From NCBI RefSeq assembly GCF_054482595.1, contig NZ_CM137008.1: DNA of 64,000 nucleotides. One strand, 5' to 3'. Positions 33,925 through 40,396 of the stretch are shown one piece after another (position 1 is the first letter of the stretch; every line of letters starts with the position of its first letter). Position numbers and translations under genes: made by a program. The notes below the pieces were generated by a model. That model had not been told where the DNA came from and made no database searches. It saw only the letters and a program-made list of their open reading frames with translations.

Positions 33925-34638
33925 GTGAATCAACGTAATATGTCAATAATTAATTCCACGCCAGTGCGTGTTATTGCCATTGTAGGATGTGATGGTTCAG
34001 GTAAATCGACCCTCACGGCAAGCCTGGTAAATGAACTGGCAGCAAGAATGCCAACAGAACGCATTTATCTCGGGCAATCGTCCGGGCGAATTGGCGAATG
34101 GATTTCACAGCTCCCTGTTATTGGCGCACCTTTTGGGCGTTATCTGCGAAGTAAAGCGGCACATGTGCACGAAAAGCCCTCAACACCGCCTGGCAATATT
34201 ACTGCGCTGGTTATCTATCTGCTTTCCTGCTGGCGGGCGTACAAGTTTCGCAAAATGTTGTGTAGAAGCCAGCAAGGCCATCTGCTCATCACCGACCGCT
34301 ACCCGCAGGTTGAAGTGCCGGGTTTTCGCTTTGATGGCCCGCAATTGGCAAAAACCACGGGCGGTAACGGTTGGATAAAAATGTTAAGGCAGCGCGAGTT
34401 GAAGCTGTACCAATGGATGGCGTCTTATTTACCCGTATTGTTGATTCGTCTTGGCATTGATGAACAAACCGCGTTTGCGCGTAAACCTGACCACCAACTG
34501 GCAGCGTTACAGGAAAAAATCGCCGTTACGCCGCAACTGACATTCAATGGCGCAAAGATCCTTGAACTGGATGGTCGGCAACCAGCCGATGAAATTCTGC
34601 AAGCGTCACTACGCGCAATTCACGCCGCGCTTTCCTGA
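33925..34638 (+). CDS. yghS: P-loop NTPase, thymidylate-kinase-like fold, function unknown
   Basis: 237 aa; Walker A GCDGSGKST, ITDRYP, ARKPDHQ. Confidence 0.8.
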   Translation: MNQRNMSIINSTPVRVIAIVGCDGSGKSTLTASLVNELAARMPTERIYLGQSSGRIGEWISQLPVIGAPFGRYLRSKAAHVHEKPSTPPGNITALVIYLLSCWRAYKFRKMLCRSQQGHLLITDRYPQVEVPGFRFDGPQLAKTTGGNGWIKMLRQRELKLYQWMASYLPVLLIRLGIDEQTAFARKPDHQLAALQEKIAVTPQLTFNGAKILELDGRQPADEILQASLRAIHAALS

Positions 34639-34669
34639 TCACCAAAATGGATAGGGGATGATTTAACGA

Positions 34670-35428
34670 ATGGATGCACTACAAACACAAACTGTTATTA
34701 GTACAACCGCGCCGCAGCCCAACTACATTCCGGGGCTGATTGCGGTGGTCGGGTGTGATGGCACCGGTAAATCCACGCTGACCACCGACCTGGTGAAATC
34801 GCTGCAACAACACTGGCAAACCGAGCGCCGCTATTTGGGGCTGCTCTCCGGCGAAGACGGCGACAAAATCAAACGATTGCCGTTGGTTGGCGTCTGGCTG
34901 GAACGGCGACTGGCGGCCAAATCCTCGAAAACCCAAAGCATGAAAACCAAATCTCCGGCGCTATGGGCGGCGGTGATTATGTACTGCTTCTCGCTGCGAA
35001 GAATGGCGAATCTACGCAAGGTTCAGCGACTGGCGCAAAGTGGCGTTCTGGTGGTCAGCGATCGCTTCCCGCAGGCTGAAATTTCGGGCTTTTATTATGA
35101 CGGACCGGGGATCGGCGTCGAACGTGCGACCGGGAAAATAAGCATGTTTCTGGCGCAGCGCGAACGGCGTTTATACCAACAAATGGCGCAATATCGCCCG
35201 GAATTAATTATTCGCCTGGGCATTGATATTGAGACTGCCATCTCCCGCAAGCCTGACCATGACTATGCCGAGCTGCAGGACAAAATCAGTGTTATGTCGA
35301 CGATTGGCTATAACGGCACAAAAATTCTTGAGATTGATTCCAGAGCGCCCTACAGCGAAGTGCTGGAACAGGCACAGAAGGCGGTTTCTCTGGTTGCCAT
35401 CGTTTCTGACCGCCGAAGTTTAACTTAA
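34670..35428 (+). CDS. yghR: P-loop NTPase, thymidylate-kinase-like fold, function unknown
   Basis: 252 aa; Walker A GCDGTGKST, VSDRFP, SRKPDHD. Confidence 0.8.
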   Translation: MDALQTQTVISTTAPQPNYIPGLIAVVGCDGTGKSTLTTDLVKSLQQHWQTERRYLGLLSGEDGDKIKRLPLVGVWLERRLAAKSSKTQSMKTKSPALWAAVIMYCFSLRRMANLRKVQRLAQSGVLVVSDRFPQAEISGFYYDGPGIGVERATGKISMFLAQRERRLYQQMAQYRPELIIRLGIDIETAISRKPDHDYAELQDKISVMSTIGYNGTKILEIDSRAPYSEVLEQAQKAVSLVAIVSDRRSLT

Positions 35429-35473
35429 GGCTGGCGGGATACTTTTTACTATCAACGATAAGGTCAGGCTGAA

Positions 35474-37655: not shown

Positions 37656-38219
37656 ATGATGTCATCTCGTTTGATTATTGCGCTGATTATCATGCTCTTA
37701 GCCCCGGGTGTGCAGGCACACAATTTCGTCACTGGCAAAACGGTTACCCCTGTTTATATTCAGGAAGGCGGCGAGCTGCTTCTGAATAGCGACGACGAAA
37801 TTCACTACCAAAAGTGGAACAGCACACAATTGGCGGGAAAAGTCCGAATTATCCAGTATATCGCCGGGCGTAAGTCGGCGAAGAAAAAGAACTCACTGTT
37901 AATTAAAGCGGTTGAAGCGGCAAACTTTCCGCAGGATCGTTTTCAGCCCACCACCATTGTGAACACTGATGATGCCATCTTTGGTACTGGCTATTTTGTC
38001 GTTGGCAAAATCGAAAAAAATAAACGGCGCTATCCGTGGGCGCAATTCGTTATTGACGGCAATGGACAGGGACGCGTTGCCTGGCGCTTGCCGGAGCAGA
38101 GTTCAACCATTCTGGTGCTGAATAAAGCTGGGCAAATTCAGTGGGCAAAGGACGGCAGCCTGACGCCGGAAGAGGTAGATCAGGTCATTGCGCTGGCGCA
38201 GAAACTGATCAATGAATAA
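37656..38219 (+). CDS. Secreted/periplasmic protein (possibly YtfJ-family-like)
   Basis: 187 aa; cleavable signal peptide MMSSRLIIALIIMLLAPGVQA; Shine-Dalgarno ccggag upstream; family assignment by recollection only. Confidence 0.6.
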   Translation: MMSSRLIIALIIMLLAPGVQAHNFVTGKTVTPVYIQEGGELLLNSDDEIHYQKWNSTQLAGKVRIIQYIAGRKSAKKKNSLLIKAVEAANFPQDRFQPTTIVNTDDAIFGTGYFVVGKIEKNKRRYPWAQFVIDGNGQGRVAWRLPEQSSTILVLNKAGQIQWAKDGSLTPEEVDQVIALAQKLINE

Positions 38220-38249
38220 AAAACTCAAAGGATTGAGGGCGTTAGTGAG

Positions 38250-39320
38250 ATGAAGCTGGTTGAACACTACATCATGCGTGGTACGCGCCGTCTGGTGCTG
38301 ATTATCGTCGGTTTTCTGATCTTTATTTTCGCCAGCTACTCCGCACAGCGTTATCTGACCGAAGCGGCAAATGGGACATTAGCACTTGATGTTGTGCTGG
38401 ATATCGTTTTCTACAAAGTGCTGATTGCACTGGAGATGTTGTTACCTGTTGGACTGTATGTGTCAGTTGGCGTGACGCTAGGGCAGATGTATACCGACTC
38501 GGAAATTACCGCTATCTCTGCGGCGGGGGGCAGTCCGGGACGCTTGTACAAAGCCGTTCTTTATCTGGCGATACCGCTAAGTATTTTTGTCACCCTTCTG
38601 TCGATGTATGGTCGTCCGTGGGCTTATGCGCAGATTTATCAACTGGAGCAGCAGTCGCAGTCGGAGCTGGATGTTCGCCAGTTGCGGGCAAAGAAATTTA
38701 ACACTAACGATAACGGACGAATGATCCTTTCGCAGACGGTTGATCAGGATAATAATCGCCTGACTGACGCGCTGATTTATACTTCTACTGCCAATCGAAC
38801 CCGCATTTTCCGCGCCCGTTCGGTTGATGTGGTTGACCCATCACCCGAGAAACCGACCGTTATGTTGCACAACGGCACTGCCTATCTTCTCGATCATCAG
38901 GGTCGTGACGACAACGAACAGATCTACCGTAATCTGCAATTACATCTGAATCCGCTGGATCAAAGCCCTAACGTCAAACGCAAAGCAAAATCGGTCACGG
39001 AGCTGGCGCGCTCCGCCTTTCCTGCCGATCATGCCGAACTGCAATGGCGACAAAGCCGTGGCCTGACCGCATTGTTGATGGCGCTGCTGGCCATTTCATT
39101 AAGTCGGGTAAAACCGCGGCAGGGGCGATTTTCAACGTTATTGCCACTGACGTTGCTGTTTATTGCCATTTTTTATGGCGGCGACGTCTGCCGTACGCTG
39201 GTGGCTAACGGCGCGATTCCTCTCATTCCTGGTTTGTGGTTAGTGCCCGGACTCATGCTAATGGGCCTGCTGATGCTGGTTGCACGCGACTTCACTTTGC
39301 TGCAGAAATTTTCCCGATGA
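38250..39320 (+). CDS. LptF-like permease (YjgP/YjgQ family)
   Basis: 356 aa; N-terminal TM bundle, large periplasmic domain, C-terminal TMs; conserved RxGRxS-type segment (RVKPRQGRFSTLLP) typical of LptF/LptG. Confidence 0.7.
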   Translation: MKLVEHYIMRGTRRLVLIIVGFLIFIFASYSAQRYLTEAANGTLALDVVLDIVFYKVLIALEMLLPVGLYVSVGVTLGQMYTDSEITAISAAGGSPGRLYKAVLYLAIPLSIFVTLLSMYGRPWAYAQIYQLEQQSQSELDVRQLRAKKFNTNDNGRMILSQTVDQDNNRLTDALIYTSTANRTRIFRARSVDVVDPSPEKPTVMLHNGTAYLLDHQGRDDNEQIYRNLQLHLNPLDQSPNVKRKAKSVTELARSAFPADHAELQWRQSRGLTALLMALLAISLSRVKPRQGRFSTLLPLTLLFIAIFYGGDVCRTLVANGAIPLIPGLWLVPGLMLMGLLMLVARDFTLLQKFSR

Positions 39321-40396
39321 ATGTTTTCAGTCGCTATTTAATCCGTCATCTCTTTCTCGGTTTTGCCGCCGCCGCAGGGTTATTGCTGCCGCTTTTTACT
39401 ACCTTCAACCTGATTAACGAACTGGATGATGTCAGCCCGGGCGGTTATCGCTGGACTCAGGCGGTGCTGGTGGTGCTGATGACCTTACCGCGTACACTGG
39501 TCGAACTTTCGCCGTTTATCGCCTTATTGGGAGGGATTGTTGGCCTGGGGCAGTTATCGAAAAACAGTGAGCTTACCGCCATTCGCAGCACGGGGTTTTC
39601 TATCTTCCGTATTGCACTGGTGGCGCTGGTTGCCGGGATATTGTGGACTGTTTCGTTAGGCGCGATAGATGAGTGGGTGGCGTCGCCATTGCAGCAACAG
39701 GCGCTGCAAATCAAATCGACCGCCACCGCGTTAGGGGAGGACGATGACATTACCGGCAATATGCTGTGGGCCAGGCGCGGCAATGAATTTGTGACGGTGA
39801 AATCGCTGAATGAACAGGGCCAGCCGGTGGGCGTGGAGATTTTTCATTATCGTGACGATCTCTCGCTCGAATCCTACATTTATGCACGCAGTGCCACCAT
39901 TGAAGACGACAAAACGTGGATCCTGCATGGTGTGAATCATAAAAAATGGCTGAATGGCAAAGAAACGCTGGAAACATTAGATAATCTTGCCTGGCAATCG
40001 GCCTTCACCAGTATGGATCTTGAAGAGTTATCAATGCCGGGCAATACTTTTTCTGTCCGTCAGCTTAATCATTACATCCATTATTTGCAGGAAACCGGGC
40101 AACCCAGCAGCGAATACCGCCTTGCACTGTGGGAAAAACTGGGGCAACCCATCCTGACCCTGGCGATGATTTTGCTGGCTGTGCCGTTTACCTTTAGCGC
40201 CCCGCGCTCGCCAGGGATGGGTAGCCGTCTCGCTGTAGGCGTCATCGTTGGCTTACTCACCTGGATCAGCTATCAAATCATGGTCAATCTGGGTTTGCTA
40301 TTTGCGTTGAGCGCACCTGTTTTCGCGCTCGGTTTACCGGTAGCGTTTGTGTTGATGGCGTTGAGCCTGGTGTATTGGTATGACAGACAATATTAA
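39317..40396 (+). CDS. LptG-like permease (YjgP/YjgQ family); ORF track start at 39236 is over-extended, with the likely start at the ATG overlapping the upstream stop (ATGA)
   Basis: Translation from MNVFSRYLIRHLFLGF; same architecture as LptG, including a NHYIHYLQETGQ segment comparable to the LptG region around YVKYLKSSGQ. Confidence 0.7.
   Translation: MNVFSRYLIRHLFLGFAAAAGLLLPLFTTFNLINELDDVSPGGYRWTQAVLVVLMTLPRTLVELSPFIALLGGIVGLGQLSKNSELTAIRSTGFSIFRIALVALVAGILWTVSLGAIDEWVASPLQQQALQIKSTATALGEDDDITGNMLWARRGNEFVTVKSLNEQGQPVGVEIFHYRDDLSLESYIYARSATIEDDKTWILHGVNHKKWLNGKETLETLDNLAWQSAFTSMDLEELSMPGNTFSVRQLNHYIHYLQETGQPSSEYRLALWEKLGQPILTLAMILLAVPFTFSAPRSPGMGSRLAVGVIVGLLTWISYQIMVNLGLLFALSAPVFALGLPVAFVLMALSLVYWYDRQY

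What the first reader, a model, noticed from the sequence alone, without database searches (positions are those of the whole stretch)
33925..40396. Seven-gene plus-strand operon converging on the synthase operon: kinase-like paralogs, flippase, two unknowns and permeases
Seen in sequence: yghS, yghR, yghQ, a 274-aa unknown, a 187-aa signal-peptide protein and the LptF/LptG-like pair are all co-oriented with gaps of 0–45 bp and two overlapping stop/start junctions. The operon ends 35 bp from the stop of the convergent SPT-like gene, with no strong terminator between them. Inference: together with the biosynthetic operon, this looks like one functional unit for synthesis, head-group modification, flipping and export of a membrane lipid.
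Basis: partly seen in the sequence, partly recalled or inferred. Interest (0 to 1): 0.7.

Follow-up and report, generated by a model that had tools for sequence, protein, structure and literature searches.

The report
E. coli sphingolipid modification and export operon
The seven genes are real and form the uncharacterised half of a 13-gene sphingolipid pathway carried by about three-quarters of E. coli strains but lost from K-12. They most likely add phosphate to a ceramide, flip it across the inner membrane and export it with a second copy of the LPS extractor.

Summary
yghS, yghR, yghQ, a 274-aa ORF, a YtfJ-family gene and an LptF/LptG-like pair are co-oriented at 33925-40396. Gaps are 31, 45, -1, 8, 30 and -4 nt, and the array ends 34 nt from the stop of a convergent spt gene. 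One correction: that spacer is a hairpin, strong (-31.8 kcal/mol) only on the spt transcript.

The window is E. coli. The convergent operon (aasR-cerR-acpR-spt) plus yghO is the published E. coli ceramide pathway. A 2026 preprint draws the E. coli locus next to Caulobacter's, where LptF2/G2 are needed for sphingolipid export.

New here:
- All 13 genes stay together in about 40 Enterobacterales genomes despite at least three rearrangements.
- In Xanthomonadales the kinases, spt operon, yghQ and the 274-aa gene form one co-directional array.
- All 13 genes are under purifying selection (dN/dS 0.03-0.15).
- The 274-aa unknown is a divergent CHAD (polyphosphate-binding) domain, translationally coupled to the flippase across three orders.
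- YghT/S/R have the thymidylate-kinase fold and are unrelated to Caulobacter's ceramide kinase.

So this is a new head-group variant of a known system. Its kinase-paralogs-plus-CHAD pairing resembles archaeal PPK3 operons. No lipid product, transcript or enzyme activity has been shown in E. coli.

The parts
33059..33751 (-). yghT, third thymidylate-kinase-fold P-loop paralog, divergent from yghS
   Evidence: ORF. RefSeq names it 'dTMP kinase', but TIGR00041 scores 24 bits against a cut-off of 83. It travels with yghS/yghR in all Enterobacterales and Xanthomonadales loci.
33847..33875 (+). Candidate sigma-70 promoter of the array (TTGTCA-17-TATTCT)
   Evidence: Consensus scan. Both hexamers and their spacing are conserved in the yghT-yghS spacer of Escherichia, Pseudocitrobacter, Hafnia, Citrobacter amalonaticus and Shimwellia. 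No transcript data.
33925..34638 (+). yghS, thymidylate-kinase-fold P-loop kinase paralog
   Evidence: The GxDGxGKST, DRYPQ and RKPDH motifs are invariant across the three paralogs.
34670..35428 (+). yghR, thymidylate-kinase-fold P-loop kinase paralog
35474..36823 (+). yghQ, full-length MOP/Wzx-type flippase (449 aa; truncated by IS5 in K-12)
   Evidence: NCBIfam MOP flippase hit, below cut-off. Orthologues carry PF01943 and PF13440. This is the same family (IPR002797) as the Caulobacter candidate flippase CC_1166. K-12 truncation.
36823..37647 (+). 274-aa divergent CHAD-domain protein (UniProt name Ybl138), start overlaps the yghQ stop
37656..38219 (+). YtfJ-family periplasmic protein, paralog of housekeeping YtfJ
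   Evidence: TIGR01626 213.5 bits (cut-off 151). PF09695 E = 1e-59. 55% identical to K-12 YtfJ. N-terminal hydrophobic segment.
38250..39320 (+). LptF2, second LptF-family permease
   Evidence: TIGR04407 319 bits (cut-off 230), but only 29% identical to K-12 LptF. The coupling-helix Glu is conserved as E85.
39317..40396 (+). LptG2, second LptG-family permease; ATGA overlap with lptF2
   Evidence: TIGR04408 306 bits (cut-off 240). 28% identical to K-12 LptG, with E88 conserved as E85.
40394..40428 (-). Intergenic hairpin, likely terminator of the spt operon
   Evidence: -31.8 kcal/mol and z = -5.8 on the minus-strand RNA, -15.9 kcal/mol on the plus-strand RNA.
40431..41603 (-). spt, serine palmitoyltransferase
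   Evidence: NF047599 599.5 bits (cut-off 500). The BL21 enzyme was assayed in PMC9386255.
41603..41851 (-). acpR, specialised acyl carrier protein
41883..42797 (-). cerR/epi, NAD-dependent epimerase/dehydratase-family reductase
   Evidence: Assigned as epi (ECD_02852) in PMC9386255.
42794..44482 (-). aasR, fatty acyl-AMP ligase / acyl-AcpR synthetase
   Evidence: NF006624 868 bits (cut-off 600). PMC9386255.
44879..46021 (+). yghO, candidate bacterial ceramide synthase (N-acyltransferase)
   Evidence: No Pfam or NCBIfam hit. Assigned as 'aca', the counterpart of CC_1154, in PMC9386255. Co-conserved at 72-97% identity in Enterobacterales loci.

Best explanation
The seven-gene array, together with yghT, is the modification-and-export half of the E. 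coli sphingolipid locus.

Proposed sequence of events:
1. AasR, AcpR, Spt, CerR and YghO make (dihydro)ceramide at the cytoplasmic face. The first three steps are shown in the literature for the BL21 proteins.
2. The basic, soluble thymidylate-kinase-fold paralogs YghT, YghS and YghR phosphorylate it. The product is ceramide-1-phosphate and probably a further pyro- or oligophosphate, because this kinase fold typically phosphorylates a phosphate acceptor. This step is inferred.
3. The CHAD-like 274-aa protein binds the anionic head group and hands it to the MOP flippase YghQ, with which it is translationally coupled. YghQ flips the lipid to the periplasmic leaflet. This step is inferred.
4. LptF2/LptG2 extract the lipid from the inner membrane. 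They are powered by the housekeeping ATPase LptB, because the locus encodes no ATPase and the LptB-contacting glutamates are kept. This is by analogy with Caulobacter.
5. The periplasmic YtfJ paralog assists onward transfer, in a locus that has no LptC2. This is the weakest inference.

The head-group chemistry differs from Caulobacter's ceramide (di)phosphoglycerate pathway.
For: Identity of the locus:
- Window 33000-45000 is 100% identical to E. coli XH990. At least 80% of this stretch is present in 4056 of 5426 complete genomes.
- The part from the 274-aa gene to lptG2 is in 4103 genomes and the spt operon in 4067.

Linkage of the two operons:
- All 13 genes are present in every Enterobacterales locus with full flanks, about 40 loci from about 16 genera. 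They occur in convergent, co-directional and inverted arrangements.
- In Rhodanobacter, Luteibacter and Dyella the order is yghS-yghR-hydroxylase-aasR-cerR-acpR-spt-yghQ-CHAD on one strand. In the Rhodanobacter locus examined, the spt and yghQ ORFs overlap by 4 nt.
- The yghQ stop and the CHAD-gene start overlap by 1 or 4 nt in 46 of 67 loci.
- The CHAD-like family occurs only in lineages that make or encode sphingolipids: Sphingomonadales, Acetobacteraceae, Zymomonas, and spt-carrying Xanthomonadales and Enterobacterales.

Selection: dN/dS is 0.03-0.15 for all 13 genes against two divergent Escherichia genomes (L010, L012), with no stop codons.

Folds: CHAD; thymidylate kinase.

LptF2/G2.

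Literature:
- PMC9386255 for the E. coli enzymes.
- bioRxiv 10.64898/2026.04.12.717747 for Caulobacter LptF2G2 binding LptB, and for deletions of these genes being obtainable only when the anionic sphingolipid is not made.
- PMC11324152 for the Caulobacter cluster and its PF01943-family flippase candidate.
Against: - No sphingolipid has been reported from unmodified E. coli in the papers found. The BL21 experiments needed over-expression.
- No transcript data were found for the array.
- Kinase substrates are unknown. The YghT/S/R profile is only weakly similar to any solved kinase.
- Pfam's CHAD model does not hit the 274-aa protein.
- In Acetobacteraceae and one metagenome contig the kinase/CHAD/flippase module lies next to glycosyltransferases. 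In Sphingomonadales spt is more than 10 kb away. The module could therefore act on a glycolipid.
- The YtfJ role is a guess.
- About 25% of E. coli genomes lack the locus.
Confidence: 0.7

Rival explanations
1. The + strand array is an LPS or polysaccharide operon, as the RefSeq names imply ('lipopolysaccharide biosynthesis protein', 'LPS export permease LptF/LptG', 'dTMP kinase'). On this view it merely sits next to the sphingolipid genes.
For: LptF2 and LptG2 pass NCBIfam's equivalog cut-offs. YghQ belongs to the Wzx-type PF01943 family. Glycosyltransferases flank the module in Acetobacter and in contig L006.
Against: The true lptF/lptG are elsewhere in the genome, and the paralogs are 28-29% identical to them. 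The array is missing from K-12 and about a quarter of strains. It follows spt through rearrangements and fuses with it in Xanthomonadales. The kinases fall far below the dTMP-kinase cut-off.
Confidence: 0.07
2. YghT/S/R plus the CHAD protein are a PPK3-type polyphosphate kinase system. They make or consume free cytoplasmic polyphosphate and are not involved in lipid modification.
Against: There are no PPX, SixA or Pst neighbours. The CHAD gene is instead translationally coupled to a membrane flippase, and the set tracks spt. The kinase profile does not prefer ST1543 (16.6 bits) over ordinary TMPKs (27.8 bits). From general knowledge, E. coli already has PPK1.
Confidence: 0.08
3. The locus is a silent relic in E. 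coli. The genes are intact, but they are not expressed and contribute nothing.
For: It has been lost from K-12 through an IS5-associated deletion and from about 25% of genomes. No native product is reported.
Against: dN/dS is 0.03-0.15 in all 13 genes, with no stop codons in the four genomes compared (L010, L012, L013, L023). Identity is 95-99% in 4730 of the 4810 genomes with a match. The -35 and -10 hexamers are conserved across genera.
Confidence: 0.1
4. The seven genes belong to one pathway but are not a single transcription unit. For example, yghS-yghR, yghQ-CHAD-ytfJ and lptF2-lptG2 could be separate units.
For: These three blocks separate in rearranged genomes (Sodalis, Rosenbergiella, Erwinia). 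The 30-45 nt gaps could hold promoters. Promoter-like hits lie at 37550, 37732, 38698 and 38729.
Against: No internal hairpin is comparable to the ones that flank the array. The gaps are short. The promoter-like hits are at chance frequency.
Confidence: 0.3

Closest known systems
Caulobacter crescentus sphingolipid locus (CC_1152-CC_1168 / ccna_01210-01226)
   Same: It has aasR, cerR, acpR, spt and a ceramide synthase, a PF01943-family candidate flippase (CC_1166 versus YghQ), and a second LptF/LptG pair with no second LptB.
   Different: The head-group genes are unrelated. Caulobacter uses the DAG-kinase-family ceramide kinase CpgB plus CpgA/C/D and nucleotidyltransferases. E. coli has three thymidylate-kinase-fold paralogs plus a CHAD-like protein. 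E. coli has no LptC2 and instead has a YtfJ paralog. The Caulobacter product (ceramide diphosphoglycerate) is known. The E. coli product is not.
LptB2FGC lipopolysaccharide extractor
   Same: Same family (PF03739; TIGR04407 and TIGR04408 above cut-off), similar length, overlapping gene pair, and conserved coupling-helix glutamates.
   Different: Only 28-29% identical to the housekeeping pair and encoded in addition to it. No lptB, lptC or lptA in the locus. Linked to spt rather than to LPS genes.
PPK3 polyphosphate kinase operon of Sulfolobus acidocaldarius (Saci_2019/2020 with CHAD protein Saci_2021)
   Same: Several thymidylate-kinase-fold paralogs are encoded beside a CHAD-type protein, in an organism that has its canonical tmk elsewhere.
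   Different: There are three paralogs, all retaining the catalytic motifs, and no PPX or SixA. The module sits in a lipid synthesis, flippase and export locus. No specific sequence affinity to the solved cPPK3 homologue was found.
CHAD domain proteins (R. communis CHAD 6qv5, C. tepidum 3e0s, PptA 6rn5, YgiF)
   Same: Two four-helix bundles. Conserved His/Arg/Lys motifs in both halves align in register.
   Different: Not detected by Pfam's model. Translationally coupled to a membrane flippase. The ligand is unknown.
Wzx / MOP-superfamily lipid-linked oligosaccharide flippases
   Same: PF01943 and PF13440 membership and a multi-pass membrane protein.
   Different: No undecaprenyl-linked glycan genes are in the E. 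coli locus. The inferred substrate is a phosphorylated ceramide.

Membership tests
Proteobacterial ('Rhodobacteria'-type) sphingolipid gene cluster | Serine palmitoyltransferase of the proteobacterial clade | tested here: met
   NF047599 599.5 bits, cut-off 500.
Proteobacterial ('Rhodobacteria'-type) sphingolipid gene cluster | Specialised ACP and acyl-ACP synthetase next to spt, plus a reductase and an N-acyltransferase | tested here: met
   acpR overlaps spt. aasR scores 868 bits on NF006624. cerR and yghO are present. Assigned in PMC9386255.
Proteobacterial ('Rhodobacteria'-type) sphingolipid gene cluster | A sphingolipid actually produced by the organism | not testable with these tools
   Only heterologous over-expression data were found.
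LptF/LptG permease family | Match to the family models above the curated cut-off | tested here: met
   319 bits against 230, and 306 bits against 240.
LptF/LptG permease family | Being the housekeeping LPS-export orthologue | tested here: not met
   29% and 28% identity to K-12 LptF and LptG, which lie at a different locus.
LptF/LptG permease family | Coupling-helix glutamate that contacts LptB (LptF E84, LptG E88; the residue role is from memory of Simpson et al. 2016) | tested here: met
   Aligned as E85 in both paralogs.
dTMP kinase (TIGR00041 equivalog) | Score above the curated cut-off | tested here: not met
   22-32 bits against a cut-off of 83.25. The RefSeq name 'dTMP kinase' for yghS and yghT is over-annotation.
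Thymidylate-kinase structural superfamily | Fold, plus a P-loop with an acidic residue, a DR(Y/H) motif and a basic LID | tested here: met
PPK3 polyphosphate kinase | Paired TMPK paralogs encoded with a CHAD protein | tested here: met
   yghT/S/R together with the CHAD-like gene, conserved in distant contigs L006 and L007. The criterion comes from PMC12995831.
PPK3 polyphosphate kinase | Neighbourhood with PPX, SixA or phosphate-transport genes | tested here: not met
   None found in the loci whose neighbouring genes were examined. pitB adjacency is specific to Escherichia.
PPK3 polyphosphate kinase | Placement in the PPK3 clade, and polyphosphate kinase activity | tested here: inconclusive
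CHAD domain (PF05235) | Match to the Pfam model | tested here: not met
   No hit even at E <= 10.
CHAD domain (PF05235) | Two four-helix bundles with conserved His/Arg/Lys motifs in each half | tested here: met
CHAD domain (PF05235) | Polyphosphate binding | not testable with these tools
   Needs a binding assay.
MOP/Wzx flippase (PF01943) | Pfam family membership | tested here: met
   PF01943 and PF13440 on 73-75%-identical orthologues. NCBIfam NF007773 gives only 32 bits against a cut-off of 273.
YtfJ family (TIGR01626 / PF09695) | Model score above cut-off | tested here: met
   213.5 bits against 151.1. PF09695 E = 1e-59.
Single operon | One transcript spanning all seven genes | not testable with these tools
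   Only spacing, a conserved promoter-like site and the lack of strong internal hairpins are available.

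The most novel reading that the evidence does not exclude
Enterobacterales, Xanthomonadales and some Sphingomonadales and Acetobacteraceae build an oligo- or polyphosphate chain on ceramide, giving a lipid-anchored polyphosphate. Alternatively they use polyphosphate as the phosphoryl donor for ceramide. The enzymes would be a PPK3-like set of thymidylate-kinase paralogs. A CHAD protein would hold the chain and deliver it to a dedicated MOP flippase, and in Enterobacterales a second LptFG complex would place the product in the outer membrane. 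This would be a new class of anionic outer-membrane lipid in most E. coli strains.
Probability: 0.15. Interest if true: 0.85.

Novelty: new variant of a known kind. Interest (0 to 1): 0.6.

Why it matters
Most natural E. coli strains, and many other Enterobacterales, carry a complete and selectively maintained sphingolipid pathway. The K-12 laboratory lineage deleted it, so it has escaped the standard model. The synthesis half is published. The modification and export half is not characterised, and it uses different head-group enzymes from the Caulobacter system.

If the product reaches the outer membrane as an anionic lipid, it could affect polymyxin and detergent susceptibility, envelope stress and host recognition. 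It would also give a genetically tractable system for asking how LptFG-type machines select non-LPS cargo.

The work also flags systematic mis-annotation. Paralogs are named LptF/LptG and 'dTMP kinase' by the NCBI pipeline.

Tried and rejected
- **YghS/R/T as homologues of Caulobacter CpgB.** Rejected. CpgB is a DAG-kinase/LCB5-family enzyme with a GGDG motif. YghR has the thymidylate-kinase fold.
- **Sequence searches for the 274-aa protein.** Pfam, NCBIfam and PDB searches gave nothing. NCBIfam also gave nothing for longer proteins that contain the domain. One of these, P0123, turned out to be a tandem duplication of the domain rather than an informative fusion.
- **Genome scan with the widest alignment (A3).** A narrower alignment (A4) worked.
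- **Metagenome look-ups of distant relatives.** They returned contigs too short to show spt.
- **K-12 literature on yghQ/R/S/T.** It was uninformative because K-12 carries only the truncated remnant.
- **Other scans.** Rfam found no RNA family in 30000-48000. The repeat search found only the P-loop paralogy and AT-rich promoter-region repeats.
- **Paper not held.** The Stankeviciute et al. 2022 ceramide-synthesis paper was not in the library.
- **E. coli sphingolipid product.** No paper reporting one was found.
- **Pho-box reading of the TGTCACAAT direct repeat upstream of yghS.** Rejected. The spacing is 16 nt, not 11, and only Escherichia has both copies.

Full report
**1. What is there.**
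The window is an E. coli chromosome. Positions 33000-45000 are 100% identical to strain XH990.

The order is pitB, then yghT on the minus strand. Seven + strand genes follow: yghS, yghR, yghQ, a 274-aa hypothetical, a YtfJ-family protein, 'lptF' and 'lptG'. After them comes the convergent operon aasR-cerR-acpR-spt on the minus strand, and then yghO and glcC.

- Intergenic distances in the array are 31, 45, -1, 8, 30 and -4 nt.
- The spacer between lptG2 and spt is 34 nt. It consists entirely of an inverted repeat at 40394-40428.
- That repeat is a strong hairpin only in the spt transcript: -31.8 kcal/mol, z = -5.8, followed by UUUAAUAUU. In the + strand transcript it is -15.9 kcal/mol, z = -1.9.
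- Consensus promoter and terminator hits in the region are at chance frequency.
- One promoter-like site upstream of yghS (TTGTCA-17-TATTCT, 33847-33875) is conserved in sequence and spacing in five genera.

**2. Distribution in E. coli.**
- At least 80% of the 12-kb stretch is present in 4056 of 5426 complete genomes.
- The distal half of the array (274-aa gene to lptG2) is in 4103 genomes. The spt operon is in 4067. The three kinases are in 4604.
- The difference is explained by K-12-type chromosomes. There an IS5 sits in yghQ and everything up to yghO is deleted.
- Because the genes are contiguous, co-loss within E. coli is weak evidence of linkage on its own.

**3. What the genes are.**
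- **Convergent operon.** It scores above curated cut-offs for serine palmitoyltransferase (599.5 against 500) and fatty acyl-AMP ligase (868 against 600). It also contains an ACP and an epimerase/dehydratase-family reductase.
- **Published evidence for that operon.** Padilla-Gomez et al. (PMC9386255) showed that BL21 AasR, AcpR and SPT produce 3-oxo-sphinganine when co-expressed. They also assign the reductase and yghO to dihydroceramide synthesis.
- **LptF2 and LptG2.** They pass NCBIfam's LptF and LptG cut-offs. They are only 29% and 28% identical to the housekeeping proteins, which lie elsewhere in the genome. The glutamates of the coupling helices that contact LptB are kept. The locus has no ATPase gene.
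- **YghQ.** It is a full-length (449 aa) MOP flippase of family PF01943. This is the same family as the Caulobacter candidate flippase CC_1166.
- **187-aa protein.** It is a YtfJ-family member, 55% identical to K-12 YtfJ, with a signal-peptide-like N-terminus.
- **YghT, YghS and YghR.**
  - They are basic soluble proteins, net charge +9 to +12.
  - Their P-loop (GxDGxGKST), DRYPQ and RKPDH motifs are invariant.
  - The dTMP-kinase equivalog model scores only 22-32 bits against a cut-off of 83.
  - They are unrelated to Caulobacter's ceramide kinase CpgB, which is a DAG-kinase-family enzyme.
- **274-aa protein.**
  - It has no Pfam, NCBIfam or PDB sequence match.
  - A profile of 61 family members finds CHAD 6qv5 as its best PDB sequence (E = 0.0023), with both half-repeats aligned in register.
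  - More distant family members in Sphingomonas, Acetobacter, Zymomonas and others, at TM 0.91-0.96, carry the UniProt name 'CHAD domain-containing protein'.
  - R88, D123, H193, R196 and D238 are invariant across the family.
  - CHAD domains are polyphosphate-binding modules (PMC6537752).

**4. Are the two operons one unit?**
I scanned one genome per species with the CHAD-like family. I then located all 13 E. coli proteins in the 79 loci returned.

- **Enterobacterales.** Every locus with complete flanks carries all 13 genes. The genera are Escherichia, Pseudocitrobacter, Hafnia, Sodalis, Pantoea, Erwinia, Serratia, Citrobacter, Shimwellia, Pluralibacter, Mangrovibacter, Klebsiella indica, Cedecea, Tatumella, Rosenbergiella and Rahnella.
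- **Arrangements.** There are at least three.
  - Convergent, as in E. coli.
  - The spt operon upstream and co-directional, as in Serratia and Pantoea.
  - lptG2-lptF2 inverted upstream with the kinases moved downstream, as in Sodalis and Rosenbergiella.
- **Xanthomonadales.**
  - In Rhodanobacter, Luteibacter and Dyella the genes form a single + strand array: yghS, yghR, an OlsC/LpxO-type acyl hydroxylase, aasR, cerR, acpR, spt, yghQ and the CHAD gene.
  - In the Rhodanobacter locus examined, the spt and yghQ ORFs overlap.
  - The LptF2/G2/YtfJ trio is absent.
  - yghO sits in a convergent operon with an MdtABC-type RND pump and an outer-membrane factor.
- **Sphingomonadales and Acetobacteraceae.** They keep the core of kinase(s), flippase and CHAD gene. 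spt is elsewhere in the genome, and in Acetobacter glycosyltransferases are adjacent.
- **Short metagenome contigs.** Two contigs repeat the kinase-plus-CHAD association.
- **Translational coupling.** The yghQ stop and the CHAD-gene start overlap by 1 or 4 nt in 46 of 67 loci. The start codon was chosen as the one nearest the stop, which favours small gaps. The ATGA, GTGA and TGATG overlaps are nevertheless visible in the sequences.
- **Selection.** All 13 genes have dN/dS of 0.03-0.15 between this window and two divergent Escherichia genomes (L010, L012).

**5. Mechanism.**
The published parts are ceramide synthesis (PMC9386255) and, in Caulobacter, export by LptF2G2 bound to the housekeeping LptB. 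There, deletions of these genes could only be obtained when anionic sphingolipid was not made (bioRxiv 10.64898/2026.04.12.717747).

I infer that in E. coli the kinases phosphorylate ceramide, the CHAD-like protein binds the anionic head group at the flippase, YghQ flips it, and LptB2F2G2 extracts it.

The locus contains no glycosyl-, CDP-alcohol or nucleotidyl-transferase. The head group is therefore probably phosphate only.

Two further observations point the same way. Thymidylate-kinase-fold enzymes phosphorylate a phosphate acceptor. Thymidylate-kinase paralogs encoded next to a CHAD protein are the signature of the recently described PPK3 polyphosphate kinases (PMC12995831). Together these suggest a pyro- or oligophosphate head group.

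This last step is speculative. The kinase profile shows no special affinity for the solved cPPK3 homologue. The PPK3 paper mentions neither the E. coli ygh genes nor lipids. The YtfJ paralog may stand in for the missing LptC2, which is a guess based only on its periplasmic location and co-occurrence with LptF2/G2.

**6. Comparison and novelty.**
The E. coli sphingolipid locus is known to specialists. Figure 9 of PMC9386255 covers the five synthesis genes. Figure 2B of the 2026 preprint draws the UTI89 locus.

I found no published account of the following:
- the co-conservation analysis;
- the identification of the 274-aa protein as a CHAD domain coupled to the flippase;
- the thymidylate-kinase-fold head-group module that replaces the Caulobacter Cpg enzymes;
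- the replacement of LptF2G2/YtfJ by an RND pump in Xanthomonadales.

I therefore rate it a new variant of a known kind, with moderate-to-high interest.

Noticed in passing
window 33019-33049: A 13-bp-stem hairpin (-21.3 kcal/mol, z = -4.3) followed by a T-run lies in the 47-nt spacer between the convergent pitB and yghT genes. It is probably a terminator.
   Followed up: partly
L002 (NZ_CP084209.1) 6476-8705; corresponds to window ~36540-44880: In K-12-type chromosomes an IS5 truncates yghQ after about 355 codons, and everything up to yghO is missing. yghT/S/R remain as orphans there.
   Followed up: yes
window 38250-40396 and 33059-34638: The NCBI pipeline names the paralogs 'LPS export ABC transporter permease LptF/LptG' because they pass the equivalog cut-offs, despite 28-29% identity to the true proteins. 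It also names yghS and yghT 'dTMP kinase', although they score far below that model's cut-off.
   Followed up: yes
L056 10804-20758 (Rhodanobacter sp. L36): The yghO homologue is the first gene of a minus-strand operon with MdtA/MdtB/MdtC-type RND pump genes and an outer-membrane factor. This operon converges on the spt-yghQ-CHAD array. It is a possible alternative export route where LptF2/G2 are absent.
   Followed up: partly
L026 and L035 (Pluralibacter gergoviae and a Pluralibacter MAG): These genomes carry a second, solitary copy of the CHAD-like gene (56-59% identical). None of the other 12 genes lie within 10 kb of it.
   Followed up: no
L006 1488-3182 (metagenome contig, protein P0123): A 564-aa protein consists of two tandem CHAD-like domains. 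It is flanked by YghT- and YghS-like kinases and a GT4 glycosyltransferase.
   Followed up: partly
window 44483-44878: The 396-nt divergent aasR-yghO spacer is AT-rich (about 40% GC). It holds an 82%-complementary inverted repeat at 44667-44688 / 44772-44793, which may be a regulator site.
   Followed up: no
window 33832-33856: TGTCACAAT occurs twice, 16 nt apart, just upstream of and overlapping the candidate -35 of the array. Only the second copy is conserved outside Escherichia.
   Followed up: partly
L044 (record titled Martelella alba BGMRC 2031): This contig, labelled as an alphaproteobacterium, has the Serratia-type gene order and 60-78% protein identity to E. coli. It looks like an Enterobacterales sequence, so the record may be mislabelled or contaminated.
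   Followed up: no
H44 (NZ_CP155555.1, strain LZHX12) and protein P0032: In some E. coli a remnant of the kinase region abuts gspL. One CHAD-like protein cluster is named 'GspM'. This suggests larger deletions that fuse the locus to the neighbouring type II secretion genes.
   Followed up: no
L089 4709-5263 (K-12 ytfJ): The housekeeping ytfJ lies about 3 kb from tamA, a gene of the translocation and assembly module. This may or may not relate to a lipid-transport role for the family.
   Followed up: no
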